DNA of 64,000 nt from Gammaproteobacteria bacterium. Lineage in GTDB: Bacteria > Pseudomonadota > Gammaproteobacteria > Eutrophobiales > Eutrophobiaceae. Each line of letters begins with the position of its first letter. Position 1 is the stretch's first letter. The stretch is taken from positions 1,056,001 to 1,120,000 of the forward strand of contig CBDCDS010000003.1 in assembly GCA_965215365.1 (NCBI GenBank), in the 5' to 3' direction. Positions 12,295 to 29,779 of the stretch are shown in pieces. A model generated the notes under the pieces. It was not told the DNA's origin and made no database searches. It was given only the letters and a program-made list of their open reading frames with translations. The position numbers and the translations under genes are program-made.

Positions 12295-13305
12295 ATGACA
12301 GTTTCCACCAGACACAGAACTGAGGCACGCAGCAACCGGGAGGCCGCCGGCAACACCGCGTCGTTGGGTGAGATTAAACTGCCTCTGGCCTGTTATCGTT
12401 TCCGGTTGCGTGCGCGGGAGACGATGCGCTTGCCGGATTATTCTGGATCCGCTTGGCGGGGGGCGTTCGGCAACAGCTTGAAAAAGCTGGTATGTATCAC
12501 CCGCGAACCACAATGTGAGCCTTGCTTGCTGTATCGCAACTGTATTTATCCTTATGTCTTTGAAACACCGCCTGACCCGAGCACAGGCAAACTGCGGAAA
12601 TACAATGCTGCGCCGCATCCGTTTGTACTACGCCCCGGAACCACCCTGAGAGGATATCTGCACCCGGATACCGAACACAACTTGTACCTGACGCTGTTCG
12701 GTCGCGGCAATAACCACCTTCCTTATATCATACACGCACTGGAGCGAGCGACCCAACGAGGCCTGGGCAAGCATAAAGGCAAATTTGATTTGCTGGAATT
12801 GCAACAATATCAGGCTGACGACTGGCGCGGGGTCTATACCCCCGGCGGTGAATTACAGCATCACGCCGCGACTTATGTGGATACGCCGGATTGTCCGGCG
12901 CGCATGACTCTTGAGTTTTTTACACCGATGCGCTGCAAGACTGAAGGTCACTTGGTGACACCGGAACGTTTTACCTTTAAGACGCTGTTCTCCTCCTTGT
13001 TAAGACGGCTGTCCTTGCTCACCACGTTTCATACCGATACCCCGCTGGCAACCGATTTCAAAGGGCTGACCCAGGCCGCCGGAGAAATACCCACGGCACA
13101 CTCTGAGTTACGCTGGCATGACTGGACCCGTTATTCCAGTCGCCAGGACACTCTGATGCAGTTGGGAGGCCTGTCAGGTACGGTAAGCTTCGAAAGCAGC
13201 GAGCTGGCCGTTTTCTGGCCCTACCTGTGGTTGGGACAATGGACTCATGCCGGTAAAAACACCAGCATGGGGCTGGGTAAATATAAAATCACCAACAGGT
13301 ACTGA
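12295..13305 (+). CDS. cas6: Cas6 pre-crRNA processing endoribonuclease
   Basis: GSAWRGAFG, Cys cluster, PHPFVL and C-terminal G-rich loop HAGKNTSMGLGKY. Start uncertain. Confidence 0.9.
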   Translation: MTVSTRHRTEARSNREAAGNTASLGEIKLPLACYRFRLRARETMRLPDYSGSAWRGAFGNSLKKLVCITREPQCEPCLLYRNCIYPYVFETPPDPSTGKLRKYNAAPHPFVLRPGTTLRGYLHPDTEHNLYLTLFGRGNNHLPYIIHALERATQRGLGKHKGKFDLLELQQYQADDWRGVYTPGGELQHHAATYVDTPDCPARMTLEFFTPMRCKTEGHLVTPERFTFKTLFSSLLRRLSLLTTFHTDTPLATDFKGLTQAAGEIPTAHSELRWHDWTRYSSRQDTLMQLGGLSGTVSFESSELAVFWPYLWLGQWTHAGKNTSMGLGKYKITNRY

Positions 13306-14610: not shown

Positions 14611-17286
14611 ATGTCAGAACCATCCACTCTCATAACACCATCTGCACGCGTAGCGCTGGCTGCTTTTTTGCATGATCTTGGCAAGTTTGCTGAGCGGGCA
14701 AAAATTGACGCTTCTGACGAGCTTATCGAGAATAATAAGCAGCTTTATTGTCCCTATCACCAGGAAGGCAAGTGGTTCTCTCACGTACATGCGGCTTACA
14801 CTGCTATTGCTATGGATGAGATTGAATCCTATCTGCCACCCTTGAAAGGCCATGATGTAGCGCCTTTCGCAGCATGGAGCGCAGCTCAGGTGGATGACTC
14901 ACTTATCAATGGGGCTGCTAAACATCACAAACCGGAGACGTTTCTGCAGTGGGTTATTGCCACCGCTGATCGCGTGGCATCAGGTTTCGAACGTAATGAG
15001 TTTGAACAGTACAACAAGGCGAGAGAAGGCACAAAAGCCGGAAAAAACCATTACACAGCCCGCCAGTTGACCTTGTTCGAGCAGATAAGGCTGGAACACA
15101 AGAACAGACAACAGGAATATCAGTATCGTTACAAACTCAAGCCGCTTTGTCCTGACGCGCTGGCGCCTGTATCAGCACGGGATTATGAACCTGTCGATGA
15201 TGATGTGGCGCAAAGGGAGTACCGGGAGCTCTGGGATGGCTTCGTCGATGGGCTGAAAAAAATACCTGAAGCTCACAGGAAAAATCTGCCGTTGTGGTTG
15301 GGACATTTTGAGTCTTTATGGGCCTGTTTTACTCACGCCATCCCATCTGCCACGGCGTTCAACACCCGCCCGGATGTCTCACTTTACGATCATTCCCGTA
15401 CTACGGCAGCCCTGGCAGTGGCCATCTGGCGTTATCACCGCGAGCACGCGCATGATGAAGCTGAAGTGGTCCGGCGCACGAGTAAGCGAGATGATTGGGA
15501 TGAGAAAAAGTTATTGCTTATCCAGGGGGATTTTTTCGGAATCCAGAATTTCATTTTTGCGAGTGGCGGGGAAACCCAAAAGCGCGCCGCCAAGCTGTTG
15601 CGAGGGCGGTCGTTCTATGTGTCGTTACTGATGGAATGTGCGGCATTGAAAGTGCTCGATCTTTTGGGCTTGCCGGCGACCAGCCAGATCATCAACGCCG
15701 CGGGAAAATTCCTGATTGTTGCACCGAATACCGAAGCCGTGCAGGAGGAGTTGGCTCAAATCCAACAGGAGTTAGACCGGTGGTTCAAGGAACACACCTG
15801 GGCTGCCTCAGGGATTGGCCTTGCGTCGCTGCCGGCTTGTTGTAACGATTTCCTGAAACGCTCGGGGTCAGGTAATGAACCAGCCCCGTTTCAGCAACTG
15901 ATGGACAAGCTGTTTGCAAAGCTGGAGCAGGCTAAACTGCAACGTTTTGACCTGTGCAGTCAGACGCAGGAGTCGGCTGTTTTCAGCAGTTTTTTTAAGC
16001 AGTTTCAACCTGACAAGGGTGTTTGTCGGATCGATGGCAAATCACCGGCCACGCGCCAGGACGAGAATGATAGCGAGGTGTTCCTGAGTGATCTGGCGCA
16101 TGACCAGATTCGAGTTGGAGAATGTCTTACCCGGTACGAGCGTATATTGGTCACACGTTCAAACATCGACCACCATACCCTGCAGCTACCTGTGTTCGGG
16201 TATTTTGTCAGCTTCACTAGGGACGAAGAGATAACCGGCAGGTTCAGTAAACTGGCGGTGGATGGAGACCTTTTACAAGCCTTCGACTTCTCTCTACCTG
16301 AGTCCGGGGGCGCGCCTCTCTGGAACGGCTATGCCAGAAGGCAAATTAACGGTTCCGTGCCCAGGTTTCAGGATTCCGATCTGGAGCATCCGCACAAGTA
16401 CCGGGGAGTGGATGAGCCAGCCAGGATTGGCGAGGTAAAGACATTGAGTCACATTGCCTGTGAGGATGCAGGAGTTGAGGCATTGATGACTCTGAAAGGT
16501 GATGTGGATAATCTTGGACAGATATTCAAAGAAGGGCTGGTGCATCCGGGCGTGGAGGGGATGACCTTTGCCAAAATGGCAGCTTTGTCACGGCAAATGG
16601 ACGCTTTTTTCACAATATATCTGCCTTATCGATGTCGGCAGGATTATCCTGATACCTATACGGTATTCGCTGGTGGGGATGATTTTTTCCTGATCGGGCC
16701 TTGGCATTCGCAGCTCGGTCTGGCCCGGAAAATGCGATACTGGTTCAGTGAGTATGTTGCCCATAACCGCGAAGTGCATTTTTCGATTGGCCTGACCATG
16801 ACCAAGCCCGGGTTGCCAATACGCCACTTGGCAGCTCAGTCTGAACATGCTTTAGAAGCAGCCAAAGGGCATAATCTCCGAGCAGTAAAACCGGCGCCAA
16901 AGAATGCCGTTACCTGTTTCGGACACAGCGTTGGCTGGAATGAGTTCGAGGCGCTGATGGAAAATGTCAGCGCCTTGGAGATGTTGGCTGAAAAGATAAG
17001 GCTCAGTACAGGTTACCTGTATGGCCTGTTGCAGTTAACGGACATGCGGGCAGAAATTGATAAAAAACTGGAAAATGCCTTATGGCGCGCCTGGTTTGCT
17101 TATCGCACCAAGCGGATGCTTGAACGTGACCATGGTCTGGATGAGGAGCAACGACAGGAATATCAGAGTACATTAGCTGCAACCATCGCAGAAAATGGGA
17201 TACAAAAGCACAAACGAGCATACAAAATTGCCTTGTTTACCTATCTCTATCAACATCGTGGGGAAGAGGTTCTAATACATGAATAG
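14611..17286 (+). CDS. cas10: Type III-A Cas10/Csm1
   Basis: HD nuclease motif LHDLGK, DVSLYDH, LLRGRSF, KGDVDNLG and intact Palm motif FAGGDD. Confidence 0.96.
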   Translation: MSEPSTLITPSARVALAAFLHDLGKFAERAKIDASDELIENNKQLYCPYHQEGKWFSHVHAAYTAIAMDEIESYLPPLKGHDVAPFAAWSAAQVDDSLINGAAKHHKPETFLQWVIATADRVASGFERNEFEQYNKAREGTKAGKNHYTARQLTLFEQIRLEHKNRQQEYQYRYKLKPLCPDALAPVSARDYEPVDDDVAQREYRELWDGFVDGLKKIPEAHRKNLPLWLGHFESLWACFTHAIPSATAFNTRPDVSLYDHSRTTAALAVAIWRYHREHAHDEAEVVRRTSKRDDWDEKKLLLIQGDFFGIQNFIFASGGETQKRAAKLLRGRSFYVSLLMECAALKVLDLLGLPATSQIINAAGKFLIVAPNTEAVQEELAQIQQELDRWFKEHTWAASGIGLASLPACCNDFLKRSGSGNEPAPFQQLMDKLFAKLEQAKLQRFDLCSQTQESAVFSSFFKQFQPDKGVCRIDGKSPATRQDENDSEVFLSDLAHDQIRVGECLTRYERILVTRSNIDHHTLQLPVFGYFVSFTRDEEITGRFSKLAVDGDLLQAFDFSLPESGGAPLWNGYARRQINGSVPRFQDSDLEHPHKYRGVDEPARIGEVKTLSHIACEDAGVEALMTLKGDVDNLGQIFKEGLVHPGVEGMTFAKMAALSRQMDAFFTIYLPYRCRQDYPDTYTVFAGGDDFFLIGPWHSQLGLARKMRYWFSEYVAHNREVHFSIGLTMTKPGLPIRHLAAQSEHALEAAKGHNLRAVKPAPKNAVTCFGHSVGWNEFEALMENVSALEMLAEKIRLSTGYLYGLLQLTDMRAEIDKKLENALWRAWFAYRTKRMLERDHGLDEEQRQEYQSTLAATIAENGIQKHKRAYKIALFTYLYQHRGEEVLIHE

Positions 17287-17773
17287 TAAGAGACATCACA
17301 GCAACGAAAGCCAACAACACAGGCAGCACGGTGGGACACAATCCCGGTCAGGATTCCCTTTTGAAATAGAGCGTATCGCGCTTGCAGAGGATGAATTAAT
17401 GTCGGATATGTTCAGCAGTGTTGCGGAAGATGCCGCAAAACACGTAGCCGAATGGGATGAGCAGAGCAAGGAAGCAGGGAAGCAAGCCAGCAAATCGACA
17501 CAGTTGCGTAAGTTCTACGATGAGATTTGTATGTGGCACAGCAAGGTTCAAGATGATAGCGCGTGTCTGCAAAAAAACTTGCCTTTGATACTGATGTTGA
17601 AAGCAAAAGTTGCTTATTCGGAAGGTCGTAAACATGTAAACAAAGCCTATGTAAACGTCTTAAACCGTTGCTTGGATCAACTGCAAGCAAGAGCAGAGCC
17701 ACGAACACTTCAAAATCTGAAATTATTCATGGAGGCCTTTACCGGTTTTTACAAGGTTTACGGCCCAAAATAA
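17279..17773 (+). CDS. csm2: Csm2 small subunit
   Basis: STQLRKFYDE, LKAKVAY and FMEAFTGFYK. Confidence 0.92.
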   Translation: MNSKRHHSNESQQHRQHGGTQSRSGFPFEIERIALAEDELMSDMFSSVAEDAAKHVAEWDEQSKEAGKQASKSTQLRKFYDEICMWHSKVQDDSACLQKNLPLILMLKAKVAYSEGRKHVNKAYVNVLNRCLDQLQARAEPRTLQNLKLFMEAFTGFYKVYGPK

Positions 17774-17788
17774 TCGGGAGATACCAAG

Positions 17789-18511
17789 ATGCAACTTACA
17801 GCAATCAGAATAATCACTGGAGAAATAGAGCTACTCAGCGGCTTACATATCGGTGGTGGCGATGCCGATATGCACATCGGTGGTATCGATAACGCAGTGA
17901 TCAAACATCCGGTTACACAGCAACCGTATATTCCCGGTTCCAGTATCAAGGGTAAAATGCGCAGTCTGCTGGAATGGGAGTTGGGAGTGGTTGGCCATAC
18001 GCAGGGGAAGCCACTCAGTTTCAGCCACGTTGAAAAGCTGGAAGACGACCAACAAGAAGGCGCTAAAATCATGCTGAAACTTTTTGGCGGCGCCCCCGAC
18101 AATAATGTACAACACCTAGTTAAGGAAATCGGCCCCACCCGTCTGGCTTTTTGGGACTGCTCCCTCGACACTGATTGGGTCAAGGAAATGGAAGACAGGA
18201 ATCTCCTGTTAACGGAGGCCAAGATGGAAAACTCCATCGACCGTATTCGTGGTGTGGCTGAGAACCCGCGTCAGACAGAGCGCGTGCCCGCCGGCGCGAA
18301 ATTCTGTTTCAAACTGAGCCTGCGTCAGCATGAAGGCGACGGCAACCTGATGGAGGTAATCCTCAAGGGGCTGCGTCTGATAGAGCTTTCCGGACTCGGA
18401 GGGTCAGGTTCGCGCGGTTACGGCAAGGTCAGGTTCAATAAGCTGGCCTGTGAAAACGAGTCTCTTGAAGAGCATATGAAAACTATTGATCCGTTTCTTT
18501 CTACGGACTGA
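17789..18511 (+). CDS. csm3: Csm3 RAMP backbone RNase
   Basis: GLHIGG, IGGIDN (catalytic Asp), PYIPGSSIKGKMRSLLE and LGGSGSRGYG. Confidence 0.95.
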   Translation: MQLTAIRIITGEIELLSGLHIGGGDADMHIGGIDNAVIKHPVTQQPYIPGSSIKGKMRSLLEWELGVVGHTQGKPLSFSHVEKLEDDQQEGAKIMLKLFGGAPDNNVQHLVKEIGPTRLAFWDCSLDTDWVKEMEDRNLLLTEAKMENSIDRIRGVAENPRQTERVPAGAKFCFKLSLRQHEGDGNLMEVILKGLRLIELSGLGGSGSRGYGKVRFNKLACENESLEEHMKTIDPFLSTD

Positions 18512-18522
18512 TCGATATACCT

Positions 18523-19512
18523 GTGAAGCGCTATTGTATCACCGTCGAGCCGGAATCCGCTTTCGGCACGCCGCTAAAAGGCGACACCTTGTTTGGTCAA
18601 CTGTGTTGGGCGATTTTGAACCGGCACGGTCAGGAGCACCTGGAAGTATTATTGGGCGATTATTCGAGACGGCCCTTCGCTGTTTGTTCGGACGGTTTCC
18701 CCAACGCCTATTTACCGCGCCCATCCCTGCCTGTTTCCTGTTTCAGTCTCCCGCAAGGTGAGGATTACAAAGCTATCAAGAAAAGACTCTGGATACCTAT
18801 GGATACATTGGACGCTCCGGTCCCACAGTGGTTACACACTGCCAAATCGGACAGTGAACTGCCAGTCAAACCGGGCGTGAGCAAAGCACAACGCCAGAAT
18901 ACGCAAAAACCGACATGGGAACATTATCAGCCCCAACCACATAACAGCATTAACCGCCTGACCGGCACGACTGGCGAGGGCATGTTTGCCCCGTACAGTC
19001 AGCAGCAAATCTGGTATTGGCCAGGCAGTAGCCTCAATGTGTACCTGTTGCTTGATGAGACGCAATTATCCCTGCAGGAGGTCCGGACGTTGCTATGTGA
19101 TATCGGTGTTTTTGGTTATGGTCGCGACGCAAGTATCGGGCTTGGAAAATTCAGGTTGACTGATTGTGTCGAAGCGGAATTTAACGCGCCTGAAAATGCG
19201 AATGCCTGCCTGACGTTGGCGCCATGCGCCCCGCAAGGGATGGGCATGGATGGCCGCCACAGCTACTACAACACTGTTACTCGTTTCGGTCGTCACGGCG
19301 ATGTTGGCGTGCATGGGGCGCATGGTCCTTTCAAAGCGCCGGTACTATTGGCCGACACTGGCGCAGTATTTACCCCAGTCAAGGAAGGTCAAACCCGCAT
19401 CGGCCAGGCTCTTGGCGGACTCTCAAAGACGATTCCGGGCACAGTACACCAAGGCTATGCGCCCTGCGTCCCCATCTACCTGCCGCCAAAGACACAGCAG
19501 GTGATAACGTGA
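18523..19512 (+). CDS. csm4: Csm4 RAMP subunit
   Basis: GDTLFGQLCW, HNSINRLTG and GYGRDASIGLGKF. Confidence 0.9.
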   Translation: MKRYCITVEPESAFGTPLKGDTLFGQLCWAILNRHGQEHLEVLLGDYSRRPFAVCSDGFPNAYLPRPSLPVSCFSLPQGEDYKAIKKRLWIPMDTLDAPVPQWLHTAKSDSELPVKPGVSKAQRQNTQKPTWEHYQPQPHNSINRLTGTTGEGMFAPYSQQQIWYWPGSSLNVYLLLDETQLSLQEVRTLLCDIGVFGYGRDASIGLGKFRLTDCVEAEFNAPENANACLTLAPCAPQGMGMDGRHSYYNTVTRFGRHGDVGVHGAHGPFKAPVLLADTGAVFTPVKEGQTRIGQALGGLSKTIPGTVHQGYAPCVPIYLPPKTQQVIT

Positions 19513-21140
19513 AATTTTTAGACGAGCATCATCTGGCAATTACCCTGCTGACACCGGTGCATATCGGTTGTGGTGAAGACTACACGCCGACTGATTACGT
19601 GATTGATGACGATGCCCTGTTTGCCTTTGACAGTGCTGGAATCATCAATGCGTTTTCGGAAACGGCCAGAATACAATTATCAAGGCTGGTCAGCGGCGCT
19701 GTAAAACCGGATGCTCTGATAAATATTCAAAAATTATTCTATGAGCAGCGCGAAGCTCTGATTGCAAAGGCCAGTCACTATCTTCCCGTTGCTGACGGAA
19801 TAATCGAGCTTTATCGAAAAAGCATAGGCAAGGCAGCCCAGCTGGAAAGTAAGGGAAAAAGAGTGGCAAATCGCTTGGAGATGGAACGCACGTTTTACAA
19901 TCCTGTCGACCAGAAACCTGTTATTCCGGGCAGCAGTTTGAAAGGAGCCATCCGGACGGCCTTGCTTAATTCGATAAACCAAGGCAACCCGCTCCGGCTC
20001 AATGAGAAAAACAGAAAATTACAAGGGCGATTGTTTCAATACGACAAGTTTGAAAATGACCCAATGCGGCTGGTGCATTTGGCTGACACGACGCATGACA
20101 GTGATGACATTGTTCATACTGAAATCCGATTTGCAACCAACCACCCCCGGCAGGAACCGAAACGGCCAAGGGGAAAGCAAACGCAGGCGGAAGCTAAAGG
20201 TCCGTATCAACTGTTGGAAATCTTGTCCGGGTTTGGTCCACGCCAATATCGTAGTCGATTAACTGTTCATAGTGTTGAACAAATACGACAAAACCACAGT
20301 TTGCCAAAAGTTGAACTTCGTTGGACAATCAAACAAATTGTGCAGGCCTGCAATGATTTTTATCTCCCGTTGCTGGAACAGGAATTGAAAATTATCAAAG
20401 AGAGGCGATATGCATCTCCCGATTGGGAACAGCAAATGGATGACCTCCTACCCAAAATCCGGCCCGTGCTCAAATCCAATCAGGCCATGGTATTACGCAT
20501 AGGACGCCATAGTGGCGCCGAAGCAGTAACTCTGAATGGTGTGCGGAGCATAAAAATCATGCAGGGAAGAGAGAAACCGAAGTTCAAAGACAAACCACAA
20601 ACCTTATGGTTGGCGGCCAATGCCCAAGACGCCCGTGCACAGATGCTTCCGTTCGGTTGGATTCTGGTTGAAATAAACCCTGCGGAAACGGTGCCGGCAG
20701 CATTGAGGAATTTTGCCGGTAAAACCAGTGACTCCAAGCAGAACTGGTTAAAAAAACAACAATGTCGAATTGCAGATTTACAGGACAAAATTACCCGTAA
20801 AGAGCAACAGGCTCAAGCCGAACAGCAAGCGGAGATTGATCGGCAAAGAGTGGATGCGGAAAAACAAGCGCGTTTGGCCTCCATGAGTAATGAAAAACGG
20901 GCTATCGAGGAGTTACGGGAGCAGTTCACGAAAGCCCAGGCATCCCAGACCTTGACTGCTCAAAGCGTAGTGCCCGATGAGTTAGCCAAGCTGCTCAAAC
21001 AGGCAAGTCAGTGGCCTGAGCGAGAGCGGACAGCCCTGTGCGATTTGGCAGAAGAAATCTACAAACCTCTGGGCATGTTGCGGGGGAAGAAAGGTAAAAA
21101 CCGCAAGACGATAATCCAACAATTAAAAGGACTGAGCTGA
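19509..21140 (+). CDS. csm5: Csm5 RAMP subunit with long helical C-terminal extension
   Basis: GTG at 19509 overlaps the csm4 stop; TPVHIGCGE, IPGSSLKGAIRTA, LRIGRHSG and PFGW. Confidence 0.9.
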   Translation: MKFLDEHHLAITLLTPVHIGCGEDYTPTDYVIDDDALFAFDSAGIINAFSETARIQLSRLVSGAVKPDALINIQKLFYEQREALIAKASHYLPVADGIIELYRKSIGKAAQLESKGKRVANRLEMERTFYNPVDQKPVIPGSSLKGAIRTALLNSINQGNPLRLNEKNRKLQGRLFQYDKFENDPMRLVHLADTTHDSDDIVHTEIRFATNHPRQEPKRPRGKQTQAEAKGPYQLLEILSGFGPRQYRSRLTVHSVEQIRQNHSLPKVELRWTIKQIVQACNDFYLPLLEQELKIIKERRYASPDWEQQMDDLLPKIRPVLKSNQAMVLRIGRHSGAEAVTLNGVRSIKIMQGREKPKFKDKPQTLWLAANAQDARAQMLPFGWILVEINPAETVPAALRNFAGKTSDSKQNWLKKQQCRIADLQDKITRKEQQAQAEQQAEIDRQRVDAEKQARLASMSNEKRAIEELREQFTKAQASQTLTAQSVVPDELAKLLKQASQWPERERTALCDLAEEIYKPLGMLRGKKGKNRKTIIQQLKGLS

Positions 21141-21424
21141 TGCACCCGTTAATCGAGAAGCATCGCGCTGATATACTCGCTTTGGCTGAGCAGTACGGGA
21201 TTGAAAACGTGCGCGTGTTCGGTTCTATGGCAAGAGGCGATGCCGGGGATACCAGCGATGTGGACCTGTTGGTTTTTCTTCCAAAGGGCCAGAGCGCATT
21301 GGCTCTGGGGGGGCTGCTCATGGATGTTCAGGATTTGTTAAAGCGACATGTAGATGTAGTATCAGAACGAGGTCTGCACCCGATGCTGCGAGAGAACATA
21401 CTCAAGGAGGCAGTACCTCTGTGA
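21140..21424 (+). CDS. Minimal nucleotidyltransferase (MNT/MntA-like antitoxin)
   Basis: VFGSMARGDAGDTSDVDLLV fits GSX10DXD. Confidence 0.9.
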   Translation: MHPLIEKHRADILALAEQYGIENVRVFGSMARGDAGDTSDVDLLVFLPKGQSALALGGLLMDVQDLLKRHVDVVSERGLHPMLRENILKEAVPL

Positions 21425-21783
21425 CCCCTACTTCGGAGTCTGATCGATTGATGCTGATGCACATACTTGATTGCATACAGCAGATCTGGGAATATACTGA
21501 AAACAGCCGGGAGGCGTTTTTTGGCTCACAAATGGTGCAGGATGCAACTGTACGTAATCTGCAAGTGCTAGCTGAATCCACCCAGAGACTCAGTGAAGCC
21601 ATCAAGGCTACCCAACAGGATATTCCCTGGCGCAAAATTGCCGGTTTCCGCAATGTTCTTGTCCATAGTTACCTGAGCCTCGACCTTGAGGCAGTATGGT
21701 CTGTAGTTGAGCATAATCTGAAAGATTTGTCTGAGGCAGCGGAAGCAATGTTGCTTATGGCGGACAAGGACACCAAGCCTTGA
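21421..21783 (+). CDS. HEPN/DUF86 (HepT-like) RNase toxin
   Basis: IPWRKIAGFRNVLVHSY fits RX4HXY. Confidence 0.9.
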   Translation: MTPTSESDRLMLMHILDCIQQIWEYTENSREAFFGSQMVQDATVRNLQVLAESTQRLSEAIKATQQDIPWRKIAGFRNVLVHSYLSLDLEAVWSVVEHNLKDLSEAAEAMLLMADKDTKP

Positions 21784-23671: not shown

Positions 23672-24642
23672 ACAGTATGCTGACCCTGTTCATTGACCGT
23701 AAAAACCTGAAACTGGAACTCGATAATAAATGCCTTTTGGTGCGCCCACCCGGCGCTGTGGTTCAAAGCCTGCCCTTGAATATACTGGACCGTGTTGTCA
23801 TCCGCAGTCAGGTTGCCTTGGATAGTCGCCTGTTGGGAGCCTTGGGGCAGCACAACATTGGTCTGAGTATCATGTACGGCCGCAACGGTCGCCAACATTT
23901 GCAATTATTCAGTCCGGGACACAATGATGCGCGGCGTCGACTTGCCCAGTATGCGCTTTGGAACGATACGCAACGCCGCCTCGACTGGAGTCGCCACCTG
24001 GTGGATGCGAAAGTCTGCGCCCAACGAAGGCTTCTGGAGTACGCGCGTGCACGCCGCCCGGACTTGCGTCATCGACTCACCACCGCTCTGAAAAGTCTGA
24101 ACAATATTATGCCTTCTATTGACAAGGCCACCGACATTGAGGTTTTGCGCGGCCTGGAAGGTTCATCGGCAGCCGTTTACTTCACTGGTTTTCAAAACCT
24201 TTTTGCCGACGGCCTGACATTCACCGGGCGTAACCGACGCCCGCCACGAGATCCGGTTAATGCCTGCCTGTCCTTGGTATATACCATGATCCACAATGAA
24301 GCTGTGCGCGCCTGTCATGGCGCAGGACTGGACCCCTTGCTGGGTTTTTACCATGAACCGGCTTACGGTCGTGAATCCCTGGCCTGTGACATTATTGAAC
24401 CCCTGCGCCCACGGGTTGATCATTGGGTCTGGCAATTGTTTCGCAAGCGTTTGTTAAGAGAAGATAATTTCAGCCGTGAGGGTGGGAGTTGCCTGCTTAA
24501 CAAAAGCGGGCGCAGGATCTTTTTTGAGGGATATGAAACCGAAGCCACACCGTGGCGCCGTTACTTTCGTTTGCAAAGCTATCGCATGGCACGCGCCCTG
24601 TTACAACTTGCTCCGGACTTGCCTGAACTGGAGAGCTCGTGA
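23668..24642 (+). CDS. cas1: Cas1 integrase (catalytic motifs intact)
   Basis: LRGLEG, FTGRNRRPPRDPVNACLS, GFYH and LACDIIEPLRP. Confidence 0.95.
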   Translation: MNSMLTLFIDRKNLKLELDNKCLLVRPPGAVVQSLPLNILDRVVIRSQVALDSRLLGALGQHNIGLSIMYGRNGRQHLQLFSPGHNDARRRLAQYALWNDTQRRLDWSRHLVDAKVCAQRRLLEYARARRPDLRHRLTTALKSLNNIMPSIDKATDIEVLRGLEGSSAAVYFTGFQNLFADGLTFTGRNRRPPRDPVNACLSLVYTMIHNEAVRACHGAGLDPLLGFYHEPAYGRESLACDIIEPLRPRVDHWVWQLFRKRLLREDNFSREGGSCLLNKSGRRIFFEGYETEATPWRRYFRLQSYRMARALLQLAPDLPELESS

Positions 24643-25403
24643 AACCTTGTTACATTCACGGCAAACAGGGTATGCAGATCAGGTTGGATGGTCCGGCACT
24701 GAGCGTCGACGTGCCTGGACAGTCTGCCGTGTTGACGCCGCTCTCCCGGATTTCCCGCATCGTTGTTTCCGGTTCGCCTGACTGTTCGGTGGCGGCTTTG
24801 CTTGCCTGTGCCGAACAAGGGATCACTATCACGTTCCTGCAACATGACGGCGCAGTCAGGGCGCAGTTATTTGGCAACAGCAAGACCCGAGGGGATTTAT
24901 TCACCCACTTGCGCGACCTGCTGGACCGTCCTGACTGGCCGGAGCACTACCAGCTCTGGCTGGAGTCTTCGGCTAGTCGTGCACGATGTGCGCTGTGCCG
25001 TAAATTGGGCTTGCAGCCAGACAGGTCGTCTGGCAGGCGACTGTCTTCGATTCTGAGCAGGCAGATGGATTATCTGATTGACCCGGGTAAACGGGGCTAC
25101 CTGCAACGCCGTCTGCGCGGCTTGTGTGTCGCCTTGGTCAATGAGGTATTACAGCAGGCAGGTCTTGACGCAACACGCTGCCGTTACTTGGAGCAACATC
25201 TTGACATACCGGGTGATTTCGCAAACCTGCTGGCTTTATCCCTGCAGTTGCCACTGATTGACTGGTTGAAGCGGCAATCACGAAATGAACGTATTGACGA
25301 CCGTGATGTGGTTGCGCTATTTGAGCGAAACAGTAAGAGGCTGGAAAATATTGCCCGGCGCTTGACCAGCCGCTTACATGGATTTTTGATTGACCTTACA
25401 TGA
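24639..25403 (+). CDS. Divergent Cas1-like protein (N-terminal domain only recognisable, no catalytic motifs)
   Basis: IRLDGPALSV..PLSRISRIVVSG...AALLACAEQGITITFL parallels the Cas1 N-terminal domain. The C-terminal half lacks the EG, RRPP, H and DxxE motifs. Confidence 0.7.
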   Translation: MKPCYIHGKQGMQIRLDGPALSVDVPGQSAVLTPLSRISRIVVSGSPDCSVAALLACAEQGITITFLQHDGAVRAQLFGNSKTRGDLFTHLRDLLDRPDWPEHYQLWLESSASRARCALCRKLGLQPDRSSGRRLSSILSRQMDYLIDPGKRGYLQRRLRGLCVALVNEVLQQAGLDATRCRYLEQHLDIPGDFANLLALSLQLPLIDWLKRQSRNERIDDRDVVALFERNSKRLENIARRLTSRLHGFLIDLT

Positions 25404-25717
25404 AGCAAAGACTCTATCTCATCGCTTATGATATTTCAGACCCTGGACGCCTTGGGCGCGTGGCCAGATACTTGAGCAAACACGCCTGCCGGGTGCAGTA
25501 TTCAGTGTTTGCCGCGCAGCTGAGCAAATCCCGCTTAAAGGGTTTGCTTTCTGAGCTTGAGGAGATAATAAACCCGGATCAGGATGACATCCGCGCCTAT
25601 CCATTGCCCGCCCGCGGTGAGGTAACGTTGTTGGGTCAACAATTCTTTGCAACCAGCGCGTTACTGGTGCAAAATGGCCCCTGTAGATTGGAACTTCTTG
25701 AAGACCCTGTCGCCTGA
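25400..25717 (+). CDS. cas2: Cas2 (copy 2)
   Basis: YLIAYDISDPGRL, RVQYSVF and DDIRAY. Confidence 0.92.
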   Translation: MKQRLYLIAYDISDPGRLGRVARYLSKHACRVQYSVFAAQLSKSRLKGLLSELEEIINPDQDDIRAYPLPARGEVTLLGQQFFATSALLVQNGPCRLELLEDPVA

Positions 25718-25904: not shown

Positions 25905-28238
25905 GTTTGAACCGCAGACCTGATTAAGAAGGGATTAAGACCCGGTGGAGCACGAAAAACAAAACTCGCCCATCATGGTTTGAACCGCAGACCTGATTAA
26001 GAAGGGATTAAGACAAAGGTTGGCGTCGATGAGGTCGGCGTGGCTCAAGTGTTTGAACCGCAGACCTGATTAAGAAGGGATTAAGACCCCAGATTGGCGC
26101 CTTCTAGGTTGGCGGCGCTCAGGTCGTTTGAACCGCAGACCTGATTAAGAAGGGATTAAGACCAGCGCATGATCGACTATTTCGATCATGCGCTGTTCGT
26201 TTGAACCGCAGACCTGATTAAGAAGGGATTAAGACATTGTGCGCTGGGGGTATGATATAATTGCGATGTTTGAACCGCAGACCTGATTAAGAAGGGATTA
26301 AGACCAAGTTGGCGCCGGTGAGGTCGGCGTCTTCCAAGTTGTTTGAACCGCAGACCTGATTAAGAAGGGATTAAGACGGTGAGGTTGGCGCGTTTCAGGT
26401 TGGCGCCATCTAGGTTTGAACCGCAGACCTGATTAAGAAGGGATTAAGACTCACATAACCTGTGGTGATCAGGTTATGTTCTTCTGTTTGAACCGCAGAC
26501 CTGATTAAGAAGGGATTAAGACTTTCAATCATGCGCTGCTCTTCGGAAAGCCTAGCTGTTTGAACCGCAGACCTGATTAAGAAGGGATTAAGACCGCTAA
26601 TTTGTGGTTTAAGAAAAAAGTCATGGTGACGTTTGAACCGCAGACCTGATTAAGAAGGGATTAAGACCATACAGCTTGTCTCCCTTTTTGACGTATTGGT
26701 TGTTTGAACCGCAGACCTGATTAAGAAGGGATTAAGACCAGCAGCGCTTGATCGACTATTTCAATCATGCGCTGCGTTTGAACCGCAGACCTGATTAAGA
26801 AGGGATTAAGACCCTTCTTTAACTCGGCTTGCCATTCCCGCCGAGGTTTGAACCGCAGACCTGATTAAGAAGGGATTAAGACTTCCTTGAACAAAACATT
26901 CCCCCACATCAGGCTGTTTGAACCGCAGACCTGATTAAGAAGGGATTAAGACGGCGCCTGTCAGGTTGGCGCCTTCCAACTTGGTTTGAACCGCAGACCT
27001 GATTAAGAAGGGATTAAGACTGATGGGCTTCCCGAATTTATCGCTCAAGTAGTCTAAAGTTTGAACCGCAGACCTGATTAAGAAGGGATTAAGACTCTTG
27101 GCGCCGGCGAGTTTGGCGTCTTCCAACTTGGTTTGAACCGCAGACCTGATTAAGAAGGGATTAAGACAATAGGGCGGAATTTAAGGCCGCCGGATTTTTG
27201 GGTTTGAACCGCAGACCTGATTAAGAAGGGATTAAGACTTGGCGCAGTAGAGGTTGGTGCCTTCCATCTTGTTTGAACCGCAGACCTGATTAAGAAGGGA
27301 TTAAGACGCTTCTTTACGATCTTCTTTGCTTCTTTTTTGCTGTGTTTGAACCGCAGACCTGATTAAGAAGGGATTAAGACGCGCCGAATGCAATGGAGAT
27401 TCTCGCGAATCACGATCAGTTTGAACCGCAGACCTGATTAAGAAGGGATTAAGACGCTCCTCGTAGTCCATCCTGTCGTCGATTTTGGTCGTTTGAACCG
27501 CAGACCTGATTAAGAAGGGATTAAGACGTACGCTGTTGGCTCCCTACTTCTGCCTGTGACGCCGTTTGAACCGCAGACCTGATTAAGAAGGGATTAAGAC
27601 AAAAAAGCGCCAAGCGCAAATCTACCGAAACTGAAGAGTTTGAACCGCAGACCTGATTAAGAAGGGATTAAGACGCACAGCGCTGCCGATCCACCGATTG
27701 ATATGGTGGTGTTTGAACCGCAGACCTGATTAAGAAGGGATTAAGACTCATCATCATGTATAGGCCTTTTTTGTGTAATTATTGTTTGAACCGCAGACCT
27801 GATTAAGAAGGGATTAAGACGCCTCTGATTGTTGCGCCTCAACCTGATCATTGGTTTGAACCGCAGACCTGATTAAGAAGGGATTAAGACGACAGAATGT
27901 TACGTTTTCTAGTCGGGCAGCAACGTTTGAACCGCAGACCTGATTAAGAAGGGATTAAGACGAGGTCGGCGCCGTTCAGGTTGGCGCCAGTGAGGGTTGT
28001 TTGAACCGCAGACCTGATTAAGAAGGGATTAAGACTTGGTGATCCCGTTGATGTTGTTGCCGGACAAGGTTTGAACCGCAGACCTGATTAAGAAGGGATT
28101 AAGACATTAATGGGAAAAGTCAAGTGATTTTTCACCGCCGAAGTTTGAACCGCAGACCTGATTAAGAAGGGATTAAGACGGCATCTCCTCTAGTAGGTTT
28201 TAAGTTAAATGGAAGGTTGAACCGCAGACCTGATTAAG
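25905..28238 (+). CRISPR. CRISPR array: 32 complete 37-bp repeats plus a truncated terminal repeat; 32 spacers of 31-38 nt
   Basis: Repeat GTTTGAACCGCAGACCTGATTAAGAAGGGATTAAGAC, whose 3' ATTAAGAC fits a type III 8-nt tag. The last repeat at 28215 is GGTTGAACCGCAGACCTGATTAAG, cut off there. Confidence 0.98.
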
Positions 28239-28460
28239 TCGCTTATTGCCTTGTGAAACATGATTGCTCTCAATAAGTTATGATCATACTGCTACTCTTT
28301 CCGCATAACCCACTGCGCTTGATGCGCCCTCGCTGGTCTTGGTTCTGCCTGCGGGCACGTGCTTGTTCAACCATAGCTACCGCTATGCTTATCGTCGCAG
28401 GCACCCGCAGGCAGAACCAATCCGGCGCGATCTTCGCATCACTGGGTGAGATCTGCGGGC
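28237..28460. mobile_element. MITE-like element family A (left end missing), fused to the terminal CRISPR repeat
   Basis: Near-identical to 36077-36317; ends ACTGGGTGAGATCTGCGGGC followed by TAA. Confidence 0.85.
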
Positions 28461-29779
28461 TAAACATCCGTCCGGGTCAACGCCGCGTAGTAAAACCCGT
28501 CGGTGTCGTCCGGGCCGGGCAGCAGTTGGCGGCCGTACTTTGTGGGGGTTCCCCATGTTGCCCGGATGGTTGCAGGGTTGGCCTGCGGTTGTCGGTTCAG
28601 GAACGTCTTGATCACTGCGTCGTTTTCCGCGCGCAGCAGCGAGCAGGTGGCATAGAGCAGGTGGCCGCCTGGCTTCAATAACGGCCACAGGGCGTTCAGC
28701 AGTTCGGTCTGTGCGGATTGCAGTTTGGGGAGTTGCGCCGGCGCCTTTAACCGTTTGATGTCGGGATGGCGACGGATGACGCCGGTGGCGCTGCATGGGG
28801 CGTCCAGCAGGATGCGGTCAAACGGGCGGCCGTCCCACCAGGCAGCCGTGTCGGTGGCATCGGCGCGGATAACGTTTGCGCTCAGGTGCAGCCGGTTCAG
28901 GGTGGCACGGAGTCTCCGGATGCGATGTTCATCCACCTCCAGCGCCGTCAGACTGCTGAGTTGCGGTTGCGTCTCAAGGAGCTGGGCGGTTTTGCCGCCG
29001 GGCGCCGCGCACGCGTCCAGTACCAGGTCGTCGGGTTGCGCCTGCAACAGGCTTGCGGCCAACTGTGCGCCGGCGTCCTGTACCGATACGTGACCCTGGT
29101 TAAAGCCGGGTAGTTGATTCACGTCAACCGGTTCCAGTACCCATATACCGCCGGGTGTCAGGGCCAGCGCCTGTGCGGGAATACCGGCCTGCGCCAGCTC
29201 GTTCAGATAGTCTGCCCGGGTCGTGCGTAGCAGGTTGACCCGCAGGTGTTGTGGCGGGCGCCGGTTGTGAGCCTGTAGTACGGCTTGCCAATGTGCCGGC
29301 CAGTCGGCCTTGAGCCGGTCGATGAGCCAGGGCGGGTGGGCATAGCGCGCCGCCGGGCGCTGTTCCAGTTCCACCATGAGCTGCTCATAGTCGCGTTGGG
29401 AACGGCGCAGCAGGGCATTGACCAACGGTTTCGCCCAGTCCTTGCCCAACCCGGCCGTGGCCGCCACCGTGGCCGAGACCGCCGCATGAGCGGGCGTGTT
29501 CAGGTGGTGCAACTGGTACAGTCCGACCAAGATAAGCATTCTGAGATCGGTATCTTTGTGCTTGAGCGGCTTGTCTAGGTAGTGGTCGAGAATCCACTCG
29601 AGTTGCTCGAACCAGCGCAAGGTGCCGAAGCACAGTTCCTTGACGAAGCTGCGATCGTCAGCGCGGTCAATTCTGTACAGATATTGTTCCAGCGCCGCGT
29701 CCAGCGTGAGGCGGTCCTGCACAACCCGGCACAGTGCTGCGGCCGCAAGCGCCCTGGTGTGTTGTCCCGAGAACGGCAC
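28460..29779 (-). CDS. rsmB: 16S rRNA m5C967 methyltransferase RsmB
   Basis: NusB-like N-terminus, VQDAGAQ, DACAAPGGKT, LDAPCSATGVIRRHPD and YATCS. Confidence 0.95.
   Translation of the reverse strand: MPFSGQHTRALAAAALCRVVQDRLTLDAALEQYLYRIDRADDRSFVKELCFGTLRWFEQLEWILDHYLDKPLKHKDTDLRMLILVGLYQLHHLNTPAHAAVSATVAATAGLGKDWAKPLVNALLRRSQRDYEQLMVELEQRPAARYAHPPWLIDRLKADWPAHWQAVLQAHNRRPPQHLRVNLLRTTRADYLNELAQAGIPAQALALTPGGIWVLEPVDVNQLPGFNQGHVSVQDAGAQLAASLLQAQPDDLVLDACAAPGGKTAQLLETQPQLSSLTALEVDEHRIRRLRATLNRLHLSANVIRADATDTAAWWDGRPFDRILLDAPCSATGVIRRHPDIKRLKAPAQLPKLQSAQTELLNALWPLLKPGGHLLYATCSLLRAENDAVIKTFLNRQPQANPATIRATWGTPTKYGRQLLPGPDDTDGFYYAALTRTDV

What the first reader, a model, noticed from the sequence alone, without database searches (positions are those of the whole stretch)
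26015..27998. A quarter of all spacers target pentapeptide-repeat genes
Seen: reverse complements of 8 of 32 distinct spacers translate to A(D/N)Lxx repeats. They are sp2 26015 LSHADLIDANL, sp3 26088 DLSAANLEGANL, sp6 26305 NLEDADLTGANL, sp7 26378 LDGANLKRANLT, sp15 26953 KLEGANLTGA, sp17 27096 KLEDAKLAGAK, sp19 27239 KMEGTNLYCA and sp29 27962 TLTGANLNGADL. They span old to new positions, so targeting was persistent. Known: some pentapeptide-repeat proteins (Qnr, MfpA) are DNA mimics, and type III tolerates mismatches. Inference: either a recurring phage/MGE expresses an early pentapeptide (possibly anti-defence) gene, with repeat-directed crRNAs giving multi-site, family-wide immunity, or the array regulates an endogenous gene family.
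Basis: partly seen in the sequence, partly recalled or inferred. Interest (0 to 1): 0.85.

Follow-up and report, generated by a model that had tools for sequence, protein, structure and literature searches.

The report
CRISPR spacers against one pentapeptide-repeat gene
A bacterial type III-A CRISPR array really does devote a quarter of its spacers to one foreign, internally repetitive pentapeptide-repeat gene that the host lacks, and a second CRISPR system in the same genome targets that gene too; the invader carrying it could not be found.

Summary
All 8 of 32 spacers translate as A(D/N)LXX repeats on the reverse complement. That strand is the sense strand of an RNA complementary to the crRNA.

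Controls:
- 1 of 561 spacers from other arrays of the same repeat family scores, and it is a simple DNA tandem.
- 87 of 20,000 random host 36-mers score.

The cas genes upstream are type III-A with no reverse transcriptase.

New finding: a type I-G array elsewhere in the genome (G000:C3:474890-477583) has 2 clear pentapeptide spacers among 36. They overlap the III-A ones: 24/27, 24/26 and 14/14.

The similarity among the spacers fits sampling from one repetitive gene or from homologues. It does not fit unrelated pentapeptide genes.

The host has no such gene and no near-full self match. Endogenous regulation is therefore rejected.

No protospacer turned up in phage, plasmid, IMG/VR, JGI metagenome or related-genome searches. 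"Phage", "early" and "anti-defence" remain inference. They rest on analogy with a Ralstonia podophage early-region pentapeptide gene and on published type III hotspots at early genes (PMC13575424, abstract).

Verdict: a real, striking but ordinary immune memory.

The parts
12295..13305 (+). cas6
   Evidence: PF10040, 71 bits
13309..14562 (+). CARF ring-nuclease/Csm6-like protein (NE0113 family)
   Evidence: TIGR02584, 221.6 bits against a cut-off of 80.65
14611..17286 (+). cas10/csm1
   Evidence: TIGR02578, 692.8 bits against a cut-off of 170
17279..21140 (+). csm2, csm3, csm4 and csm5 (ORFs 17279-17773, 17789-18511, 18523-19512, 19224-21140; the csm5 start is uncertain)
   Evidence: TIGR01870, TIGR02582, TIGR01903 and TIGR01899, all above their cut-offs
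21421..21783 (+). HepT-like HEPN ribonuclease inside the cas operon
   Evidence: PF01934, 89 bits
22163..23266 (+). CARF-HEPN (Csm6-type) effector
   Evidence: TIGR02710, 179.5 bits; PF09670
23668..24642 (+). cas1 (no reverse-transcriptase domain)
   Evidence: PF01867, 256 bits
24639..25403 (+). Second, short cas1-like ORF. Only its N-terminal ~80 residues match Cas1.
   Evidence: PF01867, 35.7 bits, residues 9-87
25400..25717 (+). cas2
   Evidence: PF09827, 68 bits
25718..25904 (+). Leader (inferred)
   Evidence: It lies between cas2 and the first repeat. The degenerate repeat is at the far end of the array.
25905..28252 (+). CRISPR array A. It has 32 identical 37-nt repeats (GTTTGAAC...ATTAAGAC), 32 spacers of 31-38 nt, and a degenerate terminal repeat from about 28216.
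26015..26050 (+). sp2. Reverse complement reads LSHADLIDANL.
26088..26125 (+). sp3. Reverse complement reads DLSAANLEGANL. Its last 14 nt equal the first 14 nt of I-G spacer B1.
   Evidence: short contigs in runs X1 and X2 with 0 differences
26305..26340 (+). sp6. Reverse complement reads NLEDADLTGANL. It overlaps I-G spacer B21 at 24/27 and resembles sp17 at 26/29.
26378..26413 (+). sp7. Reverse complement reads LDGANLKRANLT. It resembles sp29 at 25/28.
26953..26983 (+). sp15. Reverse complement reads KLEGANLTGA.
27096..27130 (+). sp17. Reverse complement reads KLEDAKLAGAK.
27239..27270 (+). sp19. Reverse complement reads KMEGTNLYCA. This is the weakest of the eight.
27962..27998 (+). sp29. 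Reverse complement reads TLTGANLNGADL. It overlaps I-G spacer B1 at 24/26.
   Evidence: short contig in run X1 with 0 differences
26163..26775 (+). Second multi-hit target, not pentapeptide. sp4 (26163-26198) and sp12 (26739-26775) are 31/33 variants of one site. sp9 (26523-26557) overlaps sp12 by 17/17.

Best explanation
Array A is the memory bank of a chromosomal type III-A (Csm) CRISPR-Cas system. It is transcribed on the + strand, so each crRNA is the + strand spacer behind an 8-nt AUUAAGAC tag.

Eight of its 32 crRNAs are antisense to the coding strand of one foreign, internally repetitive pentapeptide-repeat gene, or of close homologues. The host does not carry this gene.

The spacers were taken up on separate occasions, from old to new positions. 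The co-resident type I-G system took at least two more from the same stretch.

The over-representation most likely reflects known behaviour of type III systems:
- spacer uptake concentrates in hotspots in strongly or early transcribed invader genes;
- only spacers antisense to transcripts survive selection.

The repetitive target probably adds to this (inferred). Each crRNA can pair imperfectly with several repeat units and with variant alleles, so such spacers stay useful and are retained.

The carrier is most likely a phage (inferred, not shown).
For: Shown:
- III-A gene set with no RT.
- Translations confirmed, with 8 of 8 in one orientation.
- Enrichment against 1/561 in other arrays and 87/20,000 in random host 36-mers.
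- The host lacks such genes and lacks any self match.
- A type I-G array in the same genome has 2 clear pentapeptide spacers of 36, also antisense in crRNA orientation. They overlap sp6 (24/27), sp29 (24/26) and sp3 (14/14).
- 5 of 45 pairs among the 10 spacers reach 30 bits or more. Ten fragments drawn from one repetitive pentapeptide gene give means of 5.1 to 36 such pairs.
- Unrelated pentapeptide genes give 0 of 1,600 in each of 9 gene pairs. Two homologous phage genes give 322 of 1,600.
- Codon use differs from the host: Ala GCC 22/23 against 48%, Leu CTG 7/24 against 54%.
- Overlapping same-orientation spacer pairs are common in this repeat family: 10 pairs among 561 spacers.
- III-A 8/32 against I-G 2/36 gives p = 0.038.

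By analogy or from literature:
- Pentapeptide genes occur in 266 of 50,697 phage records.
- In Ralstonia phage BHDT8 the pentapeptide gene lies among small ORFs just upstream of primase/helicase, which is the early region by gene order.
- PMC13575424 (abstract) reports type III-A uptake hotspots at early phage promoters, while the co-resident DNA-targeting system samples genome-wide.
- PMC7515739 (abstract) reports strand bias produced by selection.
Against: - No protospacer was found anywhere. The best nucleotide matches are 30-32 of 32-36 nt. They came from back-translated patterns that forced the amino acids, or from pentapeptide genes of unrelated phages and plasmids at 86-94%.
- Source, expression timing and copy number of the target are therefore unknown.
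- If the looser regex is taken at face value, the I-G array scores 3/36 and the III-A versus I-G contrast weakens to p = 0.098.
- Seven of the eight spacers share the same codon phase at one end (p about 0.001). This may mean that a sequence preference of the uptake machinery, rather than transcription, drives the enrichment.
- crRNA orientation is inferred from locus layout, not from RNA data.
Confidence: 0.6

Rival explanations
1. Uptake bias without special biology. Cas1-Cas2 of these systems prefers some feature that pentapeptide-coding DNA offers once every 15 nt, for example a flanking motif or the dense TTG sites on the antisense strand. Any pentapeptide gene on incoming DNA (plasmid, ICE, neighbours' chromosomes) would then be over-sampled, whatever its expression or function.
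For: - The leader-distal spacer end is phase-locked. The Ala-codon offsets mod 15 are 11, 12, 12, 9, 13, 13, 12, 13. P(7 or more of 8 within 3 nt) is about 0.0013, and the other end is dispersed.
- The 5' flank of I-G spacer B1, read from the overlapping sp3, is TTG. This fits the TTN PAM that I recall for type I-G.
- Two different adaptation modules picked the same sequence.
Against: - 1 of 561 spacers in other arrays of the same repeat family and 0 of 65 in other I-G-type arrays are pentapeptide-like, although pentapeptide genes are common in the genus (14 of 23 genomes). A general bias should show up there.
- The flanks of the non-pentapeptide hotspot, inferred from sp9/sp12, share no motif with the pentapeptide ones.
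- The spacers trace to one gene family, not many.
Confidence: 0.2
2. Proportional sampling. The invader is a small element (plasmid or satellite) whose genome is largely one long pentapeptide gene, so a quarter of the spacers simply mirrors its share of the DNA.
For: - The target is unknown, so its size is unconstrained.
- The spacers behave like draws from one repetitive gene.
Against: - Spacer G+C ranges from 0.28 to 0.68, so the 32 spacers cannot all come from one small element.
- In the phage examples seen, the pentapeptide gene is 0.9 kb of 41-45 kb.
- No plasmid in PLSDB matches better than 88-89%.
Confidence: 0.1
3. Endogenous regulation: the crRNAs tune the host's own pentapeptide-repeat genes.
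For: None found. An 88-aa frame with one PF00805 hit lies 0.9 kb from array B.
Against: - No spacer matches the own genome outside the arrays beyond 25 nt at 88%.
- There is only one weak pentapeptide frame in 2.73 Mb at 97.6% completeness.
- That frame's sequence is unlike the spacers.
Confidence: 0.02
4. Not a gene at all: the spacers come from a non-coding 15-nt-period DNA repeat that merely translates like a pentapeptide repeat.
For: GGCGCC recurs with a 15-nt period. One control spacer that scored was such a simple tandem.
Against: - All 10 are open in the one frame that gives A(D/N)L with the usual variable x positions.
- Their best database matches fall in annotated pentapeptide-repeat protein genes of phages and plasmids.
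- Units differ mostly at positions that are variable in the protein family.
Confidence: 0.03

Closest known systems
Type III-A spacer-uptake hotspots at early phage genes (Streptococcus thermophilus; Noble-Molnar et al. 2026, PMC13575424; abstract and outline read)
   Same: - A type III-A array without RT has many spacers from one small region of the invader.
- A co-resident DNA-targeting system samples that region less (8/32 against 2/36).
- Other arrays of this repeat family also show overlapping multi-hit spacers.
   Different: - The target, its promoter and its timing are unknown here.
- The hotspot lies in a tandem-repeat protein gene.
- The co-resident system is type I-G, not type II.
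Type III spacers with strand bias through selection (Thermus thermophilus; Artamonova et al. 2020, PMC7515739; abstract and outline read)
   Same: - Conventional Cas1-Cas2 with no RT.
- All retained spacers are antisense to the coding strand.
- The repeat ends in a similar 8-nt tag (the Thermus tag is recalled, not taken from a call).
   Different: Natural array in an uncultured gammaproteobacterium, with no infection data.
Type III systems backing up type I systems against escape (Silas et al. 2017, PMC5576922; only the search listing and the start of the abstract seen)
   Same: A type I and a type III system in one genome hold spacers against the same invader sequence.
   Different: Here each system has its own array, repeat and adaptation genes. 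No evidence of crRNA sharing was sought.
Phage pentapeptide-repeat proteins, e.g. Ralstonia phage BHDT8 ORF2 (OQ579022.1; Autographiviridae)
   Same: - High-G+C, very repetitive GA(D/N)L units.
- The best nucleotide matches of B21 (29/33), B1 (24/27) and sp29 (23/26) among the pentapeptide genes compared fall here.
- The gene lies in the early region by gene order.
   Different: - Not the target: identity is too low and the host is unrelated.
- The function of these phage proteins is not established in anything I read.
Qnr / MfpA / McbG pentapeptide DNA mimics
   Same: Same protein fold family, described as DNA mimics that protect gyrase (PMC7261183, passages read).
   Different: - In that paper McbG and QnrB did not inhibit BREX.
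- Nothing here shows that the target is a DNA mimic or an anti-defence protein.

Membership tests
Type III-A (Csm) CRISPR-Cas | Cas10/Csm1 together with Csm2, Csm3, Csm4 and Csm5 | tested here: met
   TIGR02578 (692.8 bits), TIGR01870, TIGR02582, TIGR01903 and TIGR01899, all above their cut-offs
Type III-A (Csm) CRISPR-Cas | Adjacent array with Cas6, Cas1 and Cas2, plus a CARF effector | tested here: met
Type III-A (Csm) CRISPR-Cas | crRNA made from the + strand and complementary to target RNA | not testable with these tools
   Inferred from the cas operon direction, the degenerate distal repeat and the ATTAAGAC repeat end. There is no Rfam CRISPR-DR match and no RNA run is listed.
Pentapeptide-repeat protein gene (PF00805) as the spacer source | Tandem A(D/N)LXX units in one open frame | tested here: met
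   - 5 of 8 spacers have two strict consecutive units and 8 of 8 pass the looser pattern.
- The fragments are too short for an HMM score.
Pentapeptide-repeat protein gene (PF00805) as the spacer source | The protospacer lies inside an annotated or predicted pentapeptide ORF | tested here: inconclusive
   No true protospacer was found. The partial matches (86-94%) all fall in annotated pentapeptide genes.
Type III early-gene uptake hotspot | Several spacers from one short region, all antisense to the transcript | tested here: met
   Overlaps and similarity among the 10 spacers, all in the same orientation
Type III early-gene uptake hotspot | The region lies just downstream of an early invader promoter | not testable with these tools
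   The target is unknown. There is only an analogy with the gene order of BHDT8.
Self-targeting / regulatory CRISPR array | Spacers match genes of the own genome | tested here: not met
   No match for any array A spacer. One I-G spacer does match upstream of dnaN, but it is not a pentapeptide spacer.
Type I-G CRISPR-Cas (array B, outside the window) | Cas4g/Cas1g fusion, Cas3g with C-terminal HD, Csb1, Csb2 | tested here: met
   NF049935 (822 bits, cut-off 560), TIGR02621 (700 bits), TIGR02570, TIGR02165 and NF049934. A Cas2-like 96-aa ORF is also present.

The most novel reading that the evidence does not exclude
The target is an early-expressed phage pentapeptide-repeat protein that acts as a DNA-mimic counter-defence. 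Two unrelated CRISPR systems of the host have converged on it. Because it is a tandem repeat, each crRNA pairs with many sites and many alleles. That would make the repeat gene an escape-proof handle, which in turn would explain why such spacers persist from the oldest to the newest array positions.
Probability: 0.15. Interest if true: 0.7.

Novelty: new member of a known kind. Interest (0 to 1): 0.4.

Why it matters
This is a clean natural example of two points.
- A type III array can pile a quarter of its memory onto a single invader gene.
- A DNA-targeting system in the same cell can pick the same gene.

If the carrier is found, two questions become directly testable:
- whether type III hotspots mark early genes in uncultured hosts;
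- whether tandem-repeat genes make unusually durable CRISPR targets.

It would also flag phage pentapeptide-repeat proteins, whose function is unknown, as candidates for early host-takeover or counter-defence factors.

As it stands, this is ordinary adaptive immunity with an unusual target.

Tried and rejected
**Protospacer searches that found no true target**
- Array A against phages: 10 records. The best hits were 25/26 and 32/38.
- Array A against plasmids: 8 records. Two are arrays with a similar repeat and six are pentapeptide genes at 30/34.
- Exact sp12 and a 29-nt piece of sp29 in IMG/VR: 0 hits.
- sp6/sp17 consensus in JGI metagenomes: 0 hits.
- Back-translated patterns in IMG/VR:
  - sp6: 2 loci, best 32/36.
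  - sp29: 1 locus, 30/35.
  - sp19, sp2 and the sp4/sp12 site: 0 hits each.
  - B1: 3 loci, best 20/22.
- sp6 pattern in metagenomes: 47 loci, best 30/32 to 30/33, none at 34/36 or better.
- Array A against 41 genomes, array B against 41 genomes and array B against 400 scored class-level genomes: only arrays with similar repeats and one self match.
  - One further genome, G272, was not scored.
  - G165 is flagged unpublished.
- Pentapeptide genes of same-genus relatives: the best spacer match was 17/19. Those in G011 are T6SS-linked (VgrG, DUF2169, IcmF), not mobile.

**Ideas dropped**
- Spacers taken from restriction-cut ends at GGCGCC. The site is not avoided in the host (observed/expected 0.95), so there is no sign of such an enzyme.
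- Other arrays in the genome. A k-mer scan found only arrays A and B. The other repeat clusters that I inspected were tandem repeats.

**Other results**
- Rfam gave only a chance mir-214 hit.
- The look-up of sequencing runs listed no RNA holder.
- Read laying showed the strain in two runs but cannot show protospacers.
- The literature searches returned no paper describing CRISPR spacers enriched for pentapeptide genes, or a phage pentapeptide protein shown to be anti-defence. I screened the listings and read passages of only two papers.
- Supplementary files were not opened.
- One spacer of array B flagged by the loose regex (LPAFVGADLPVG) was dropped after inspection. It has one unit only, the opposite orientation and no similarity to the others. 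With it included the I-G count is 3/36.
Full report
**What is at the coordinates.** Window 25905-28252 is a CRISPR array. It has 32 identical 37-nt repeats and 32 spacers of 31-38 nt. A degenerate last repeat sits at the right-hand end.

Upstream on the + strand lie these genes:
- cas6
- a CARF ring nuclease
- cas10/csm1
- csm2, csm3, csm4 and csm5
- a HepT-like RNase
- a CARF-HEPN protein
- cas1
- a short second cas1-like ORF
- cas2

This is a type III-A locus without a reverse transcriptase. It sits in the chromosome between an NtrY-like kinase gene and rsmB-fmt-def.

Three features place the leader on the left and the crRNA on the + strand: the direction of the cas operon, the degenerate distal repeat, and the ATTAAGAC repeat end. 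This is inferred, because no RNA data exist.

**The observation.** With the crRNA on the + strand, the reverse complement is the RNA that the crRNA would pair with. All eight crRNAs are therefore antisense to a pentapeptide-repeat coding strand (8 of 8, one-sided p = 0.004).

- A strict two-unit regex scores 5 of 31 spacers. A looser one scores 8 of 31. The last spacer was not in that set.
- The strict regex scores 0 of 230 spacers from five relatives' arrays.
- Either regex scores 1 of 561 distinct spacers from arrays with the same repeat family in public genomes. That one is a simple DNA tandem.
- Random host 36-mers score 3 of 20,000 (strict) and 87 of 20,000 (loose).
- Fisher 8/32 vs 1/561 gives p = 2.5e-10.
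- Short contigs in two public runs carry sp3 and sp29 with no differences.

The enrichment is real and is specific to this strain's array.

**Not an endogenous family.** The genome is 2.73 Mb in 3 contigs, 97.6% complete and 58% G+C. It has one weak PF00805 hit, an 88-aa frame. My own scan for periodic A(D/N)L frames found nothing else convincing. No array A spacer matches the genome outside the arrays beyond 25 nt at 88%. The regulatory reading is rejected.

**A second system hits the same sequence.** The two best 'self' hits of sp6 and sp29 turned out to lie in a second CRISPR array at G000:C3:474890-477583. It has 37 repeats of a different sequence and 36 spacers. It stands downstream of a complete type I-G operon on the minus strand:
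- csb1
- csb2
- cas3g and a Cas3-extension gene
- a cas4g/cas1g fusion at 822 bits
- cas2

Two of its spacers are clear pentapeptide spacers. One is leader-proximal (GANLSGADLSA) and one is mid-array (DADLAGANLVG). A third regex hit was dropped on inspection.

In crRNA orientation both are again antisense. They overlap array A spacers:
- B21 with sp6: 24/27
- B1 with sp29: 24/26
- the first 14 nt of B1 equal the last 14 nt of sp3: 14/14

Within array A, sp6~sp17 is 26/29, sp7~sp29 is 25/28, sp2~sp6 is 21/23 and sp15~sp17 is 17/18.

Other I-G-type arrays gave 0 of 65 pentapeptide-like spacers.

**One gene or many?** Five of the 45 pairs among the ten spacers reach 30 bits or more.

| Source of fragments | Pairs at 30 bits or more |
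|---|---|
| Ten fragments from one repetitive pentapeptide gene | mean 5.1 (887-aa gene of a relative), 8.2 (Ralstonia phage BHDT8), 36 (phage Sarlave) |
| Ten fragments from one degenerate T6SS-type pentapeptide gene | 0 |
| Fragments from unrelated pentapeptide genes | 0 of 1,600 in each of 9 gene pairs |
| Fragments from the two homologous phage genes | 322 of 1,600 |

The ten spacers therefore come from one internally repetitive gene or from close homologues. It leaves the size of the carrier open.

Codon use in the spacers differs from the host. Ala GCC is 22/23 against 48%, Gly GGC is 13/13 against 54%, and Leu CTG is 7/24 against 54%. The codons are not independent, because the units are repeats.

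**The target was not found.** Searches of phages, plasmids, IMG/VR, JGI metagenomes, 41 relatives and 400 class-level genomes gave no true protospacer.

Partial matches of 86-94% fall in annotated pentapeptide genes of unrelated high-G+C phages and plasmids (Ralstonia, Gordonia, Bordetella and Rhizobium phages; Azospirillum and Ralstonia plasmids). They show family resemblance only.

Pentapeptide genes of same-genus relatives do not match. Where examined, they are chromosomal. Some are T6SS-linked.

**Why so many?** Two abstracts I read describe the relevant behaviour.
- In S. thermophilus, type III-A uptake is strongly enriched just downstream of an early phage promoter, while the co-resident DNA-targeting system samples genome-wide (PMC13575424).
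- In Thermus, strand bias of type III spacers arises by selection (PMC7515739).

Several results here fit that picture.
- III-A has 8/32 against 2/36 for I-G. This gives p = 0.038, or 0.098 if the doubtful third I-G spacer is counted.
- A second, unrelated three-spacer cluster exists in array A: sp4, sp9 and sp12.
- There are 10 overlapping same-orientation pairs among the 561 spacers of other arrays in this repeat family.

Pentapeptide genes occur in 266 of 50,697 phage records. In Ralstonia podophage BHDT8 the 287-aa pentapeptide gene lies among small ORFs just before primase/helicase in the direction of transcription. By gene order that is the early region. This is an analogy, not evidence about the real target.

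**An unexplained detail.** Seven of the eight array A pentapeptide spacers end at the same codon phase at their leader-distal end, right after the Ala codon. The other end is dispersed (p about 0.0013). This points to a sequence preference in prespacer choice. It feeds the main rival explanation, uptake bias. That rival is weakened because pentapeptide spacers are absent from 561 + 65 spacers of sister arrays, although 14 of 23 genomes of the genus carry pentapeptide genes. A restriction-end origin at GGCGCC has no support.

**Verdict.** 'Phage', 'early', 'anti-defence' and 'multi-site immunity' remain inference. It is a striking instance of a known behaviour of type III systems rather than a new kind of system.

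Noticed in passing
G000:C3:474890-477583 (outside the window; L149:16891-19584): A second CRISPR array (37 repeats, 36 spacers) with a complete type I-G operon at C3:477788-489551 (minus strand). Two of its spacers target the same pentapeptide sequence as array A.
   Followed up: yes
G000:C3:645672-645707 (outside the window): One type I-G spacer (19th from the leader) matches the own chromosome 36/36. The match lies in an AT-rich stretch just upstream of a DnaN-like ORF, and its 5' flank is GAT. A same-genus genome (G006) has an 86% match. This is possible self-targeting without a functional PAM.
   Followed up: partly
window 26163-26198, 26523-26557, 26739-26775: sp4 and sp12 are variants of one site (31/33), and sp9 overlaps sp12 by 17 nt. 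sp4 is a perfect 14-bp inverted repeat with a 5-nt loop. sp8 (26451-26485) holds a 10-bp inverted repeat. The source is unknown.
   Followed up: partly
window 26015-27998 (the eight pentapeptide spacers): The leader-distal ends of 7 of the 8 spacers fall at the same codon phase, just after the Ala codon. The leader-proximal ends vary by up to 9 nt. This suggests a flanking-motif or cut-site preference of the adaptation machinery.
   Followed up: partly
window 24639-25403: A second cas1-like ORF of 254 aa lies between cas1 and cas2. Only its first ~80 residues match Cas1.
   Followed up: no
window 21421-21783: A HepT-like HEPN ribonuclease gene is embedded between csm5 and the CARF-HEPN gene.
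   Followed up: no
window 28236-28463: Directly after the array lies a palindromic element. In the public runs its depth is about 200 times that of its flanks, with many joints and inverted junctions. It looks like a REP/MITE-like repeat that is abundant in that community. Rfam gives only a chance mir-214 hit.
   Followed up: no
G000:C3:473767-474030 (outside the window): An 88-aa open frame carries the genome's only PF00805 hit (35 bits). It lies about 0.9 kb from the distal end of array B.
   Followed up: no
G000:C3:2323491-2324199 and 2120478-2120826 (outside the window): Long tandem arrays of a ~71-nt unit sit at two loci in opposite orientation. They are not CRISPR-like, having no spacers.
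   Followed up: no
window 25925 and every repeat (table 3): The same-study runs contain many contigs with this repeat carrying a T>G change at one position. Sister arrays of the same repeat family are therefore abundant in that community.
   Followed up: no
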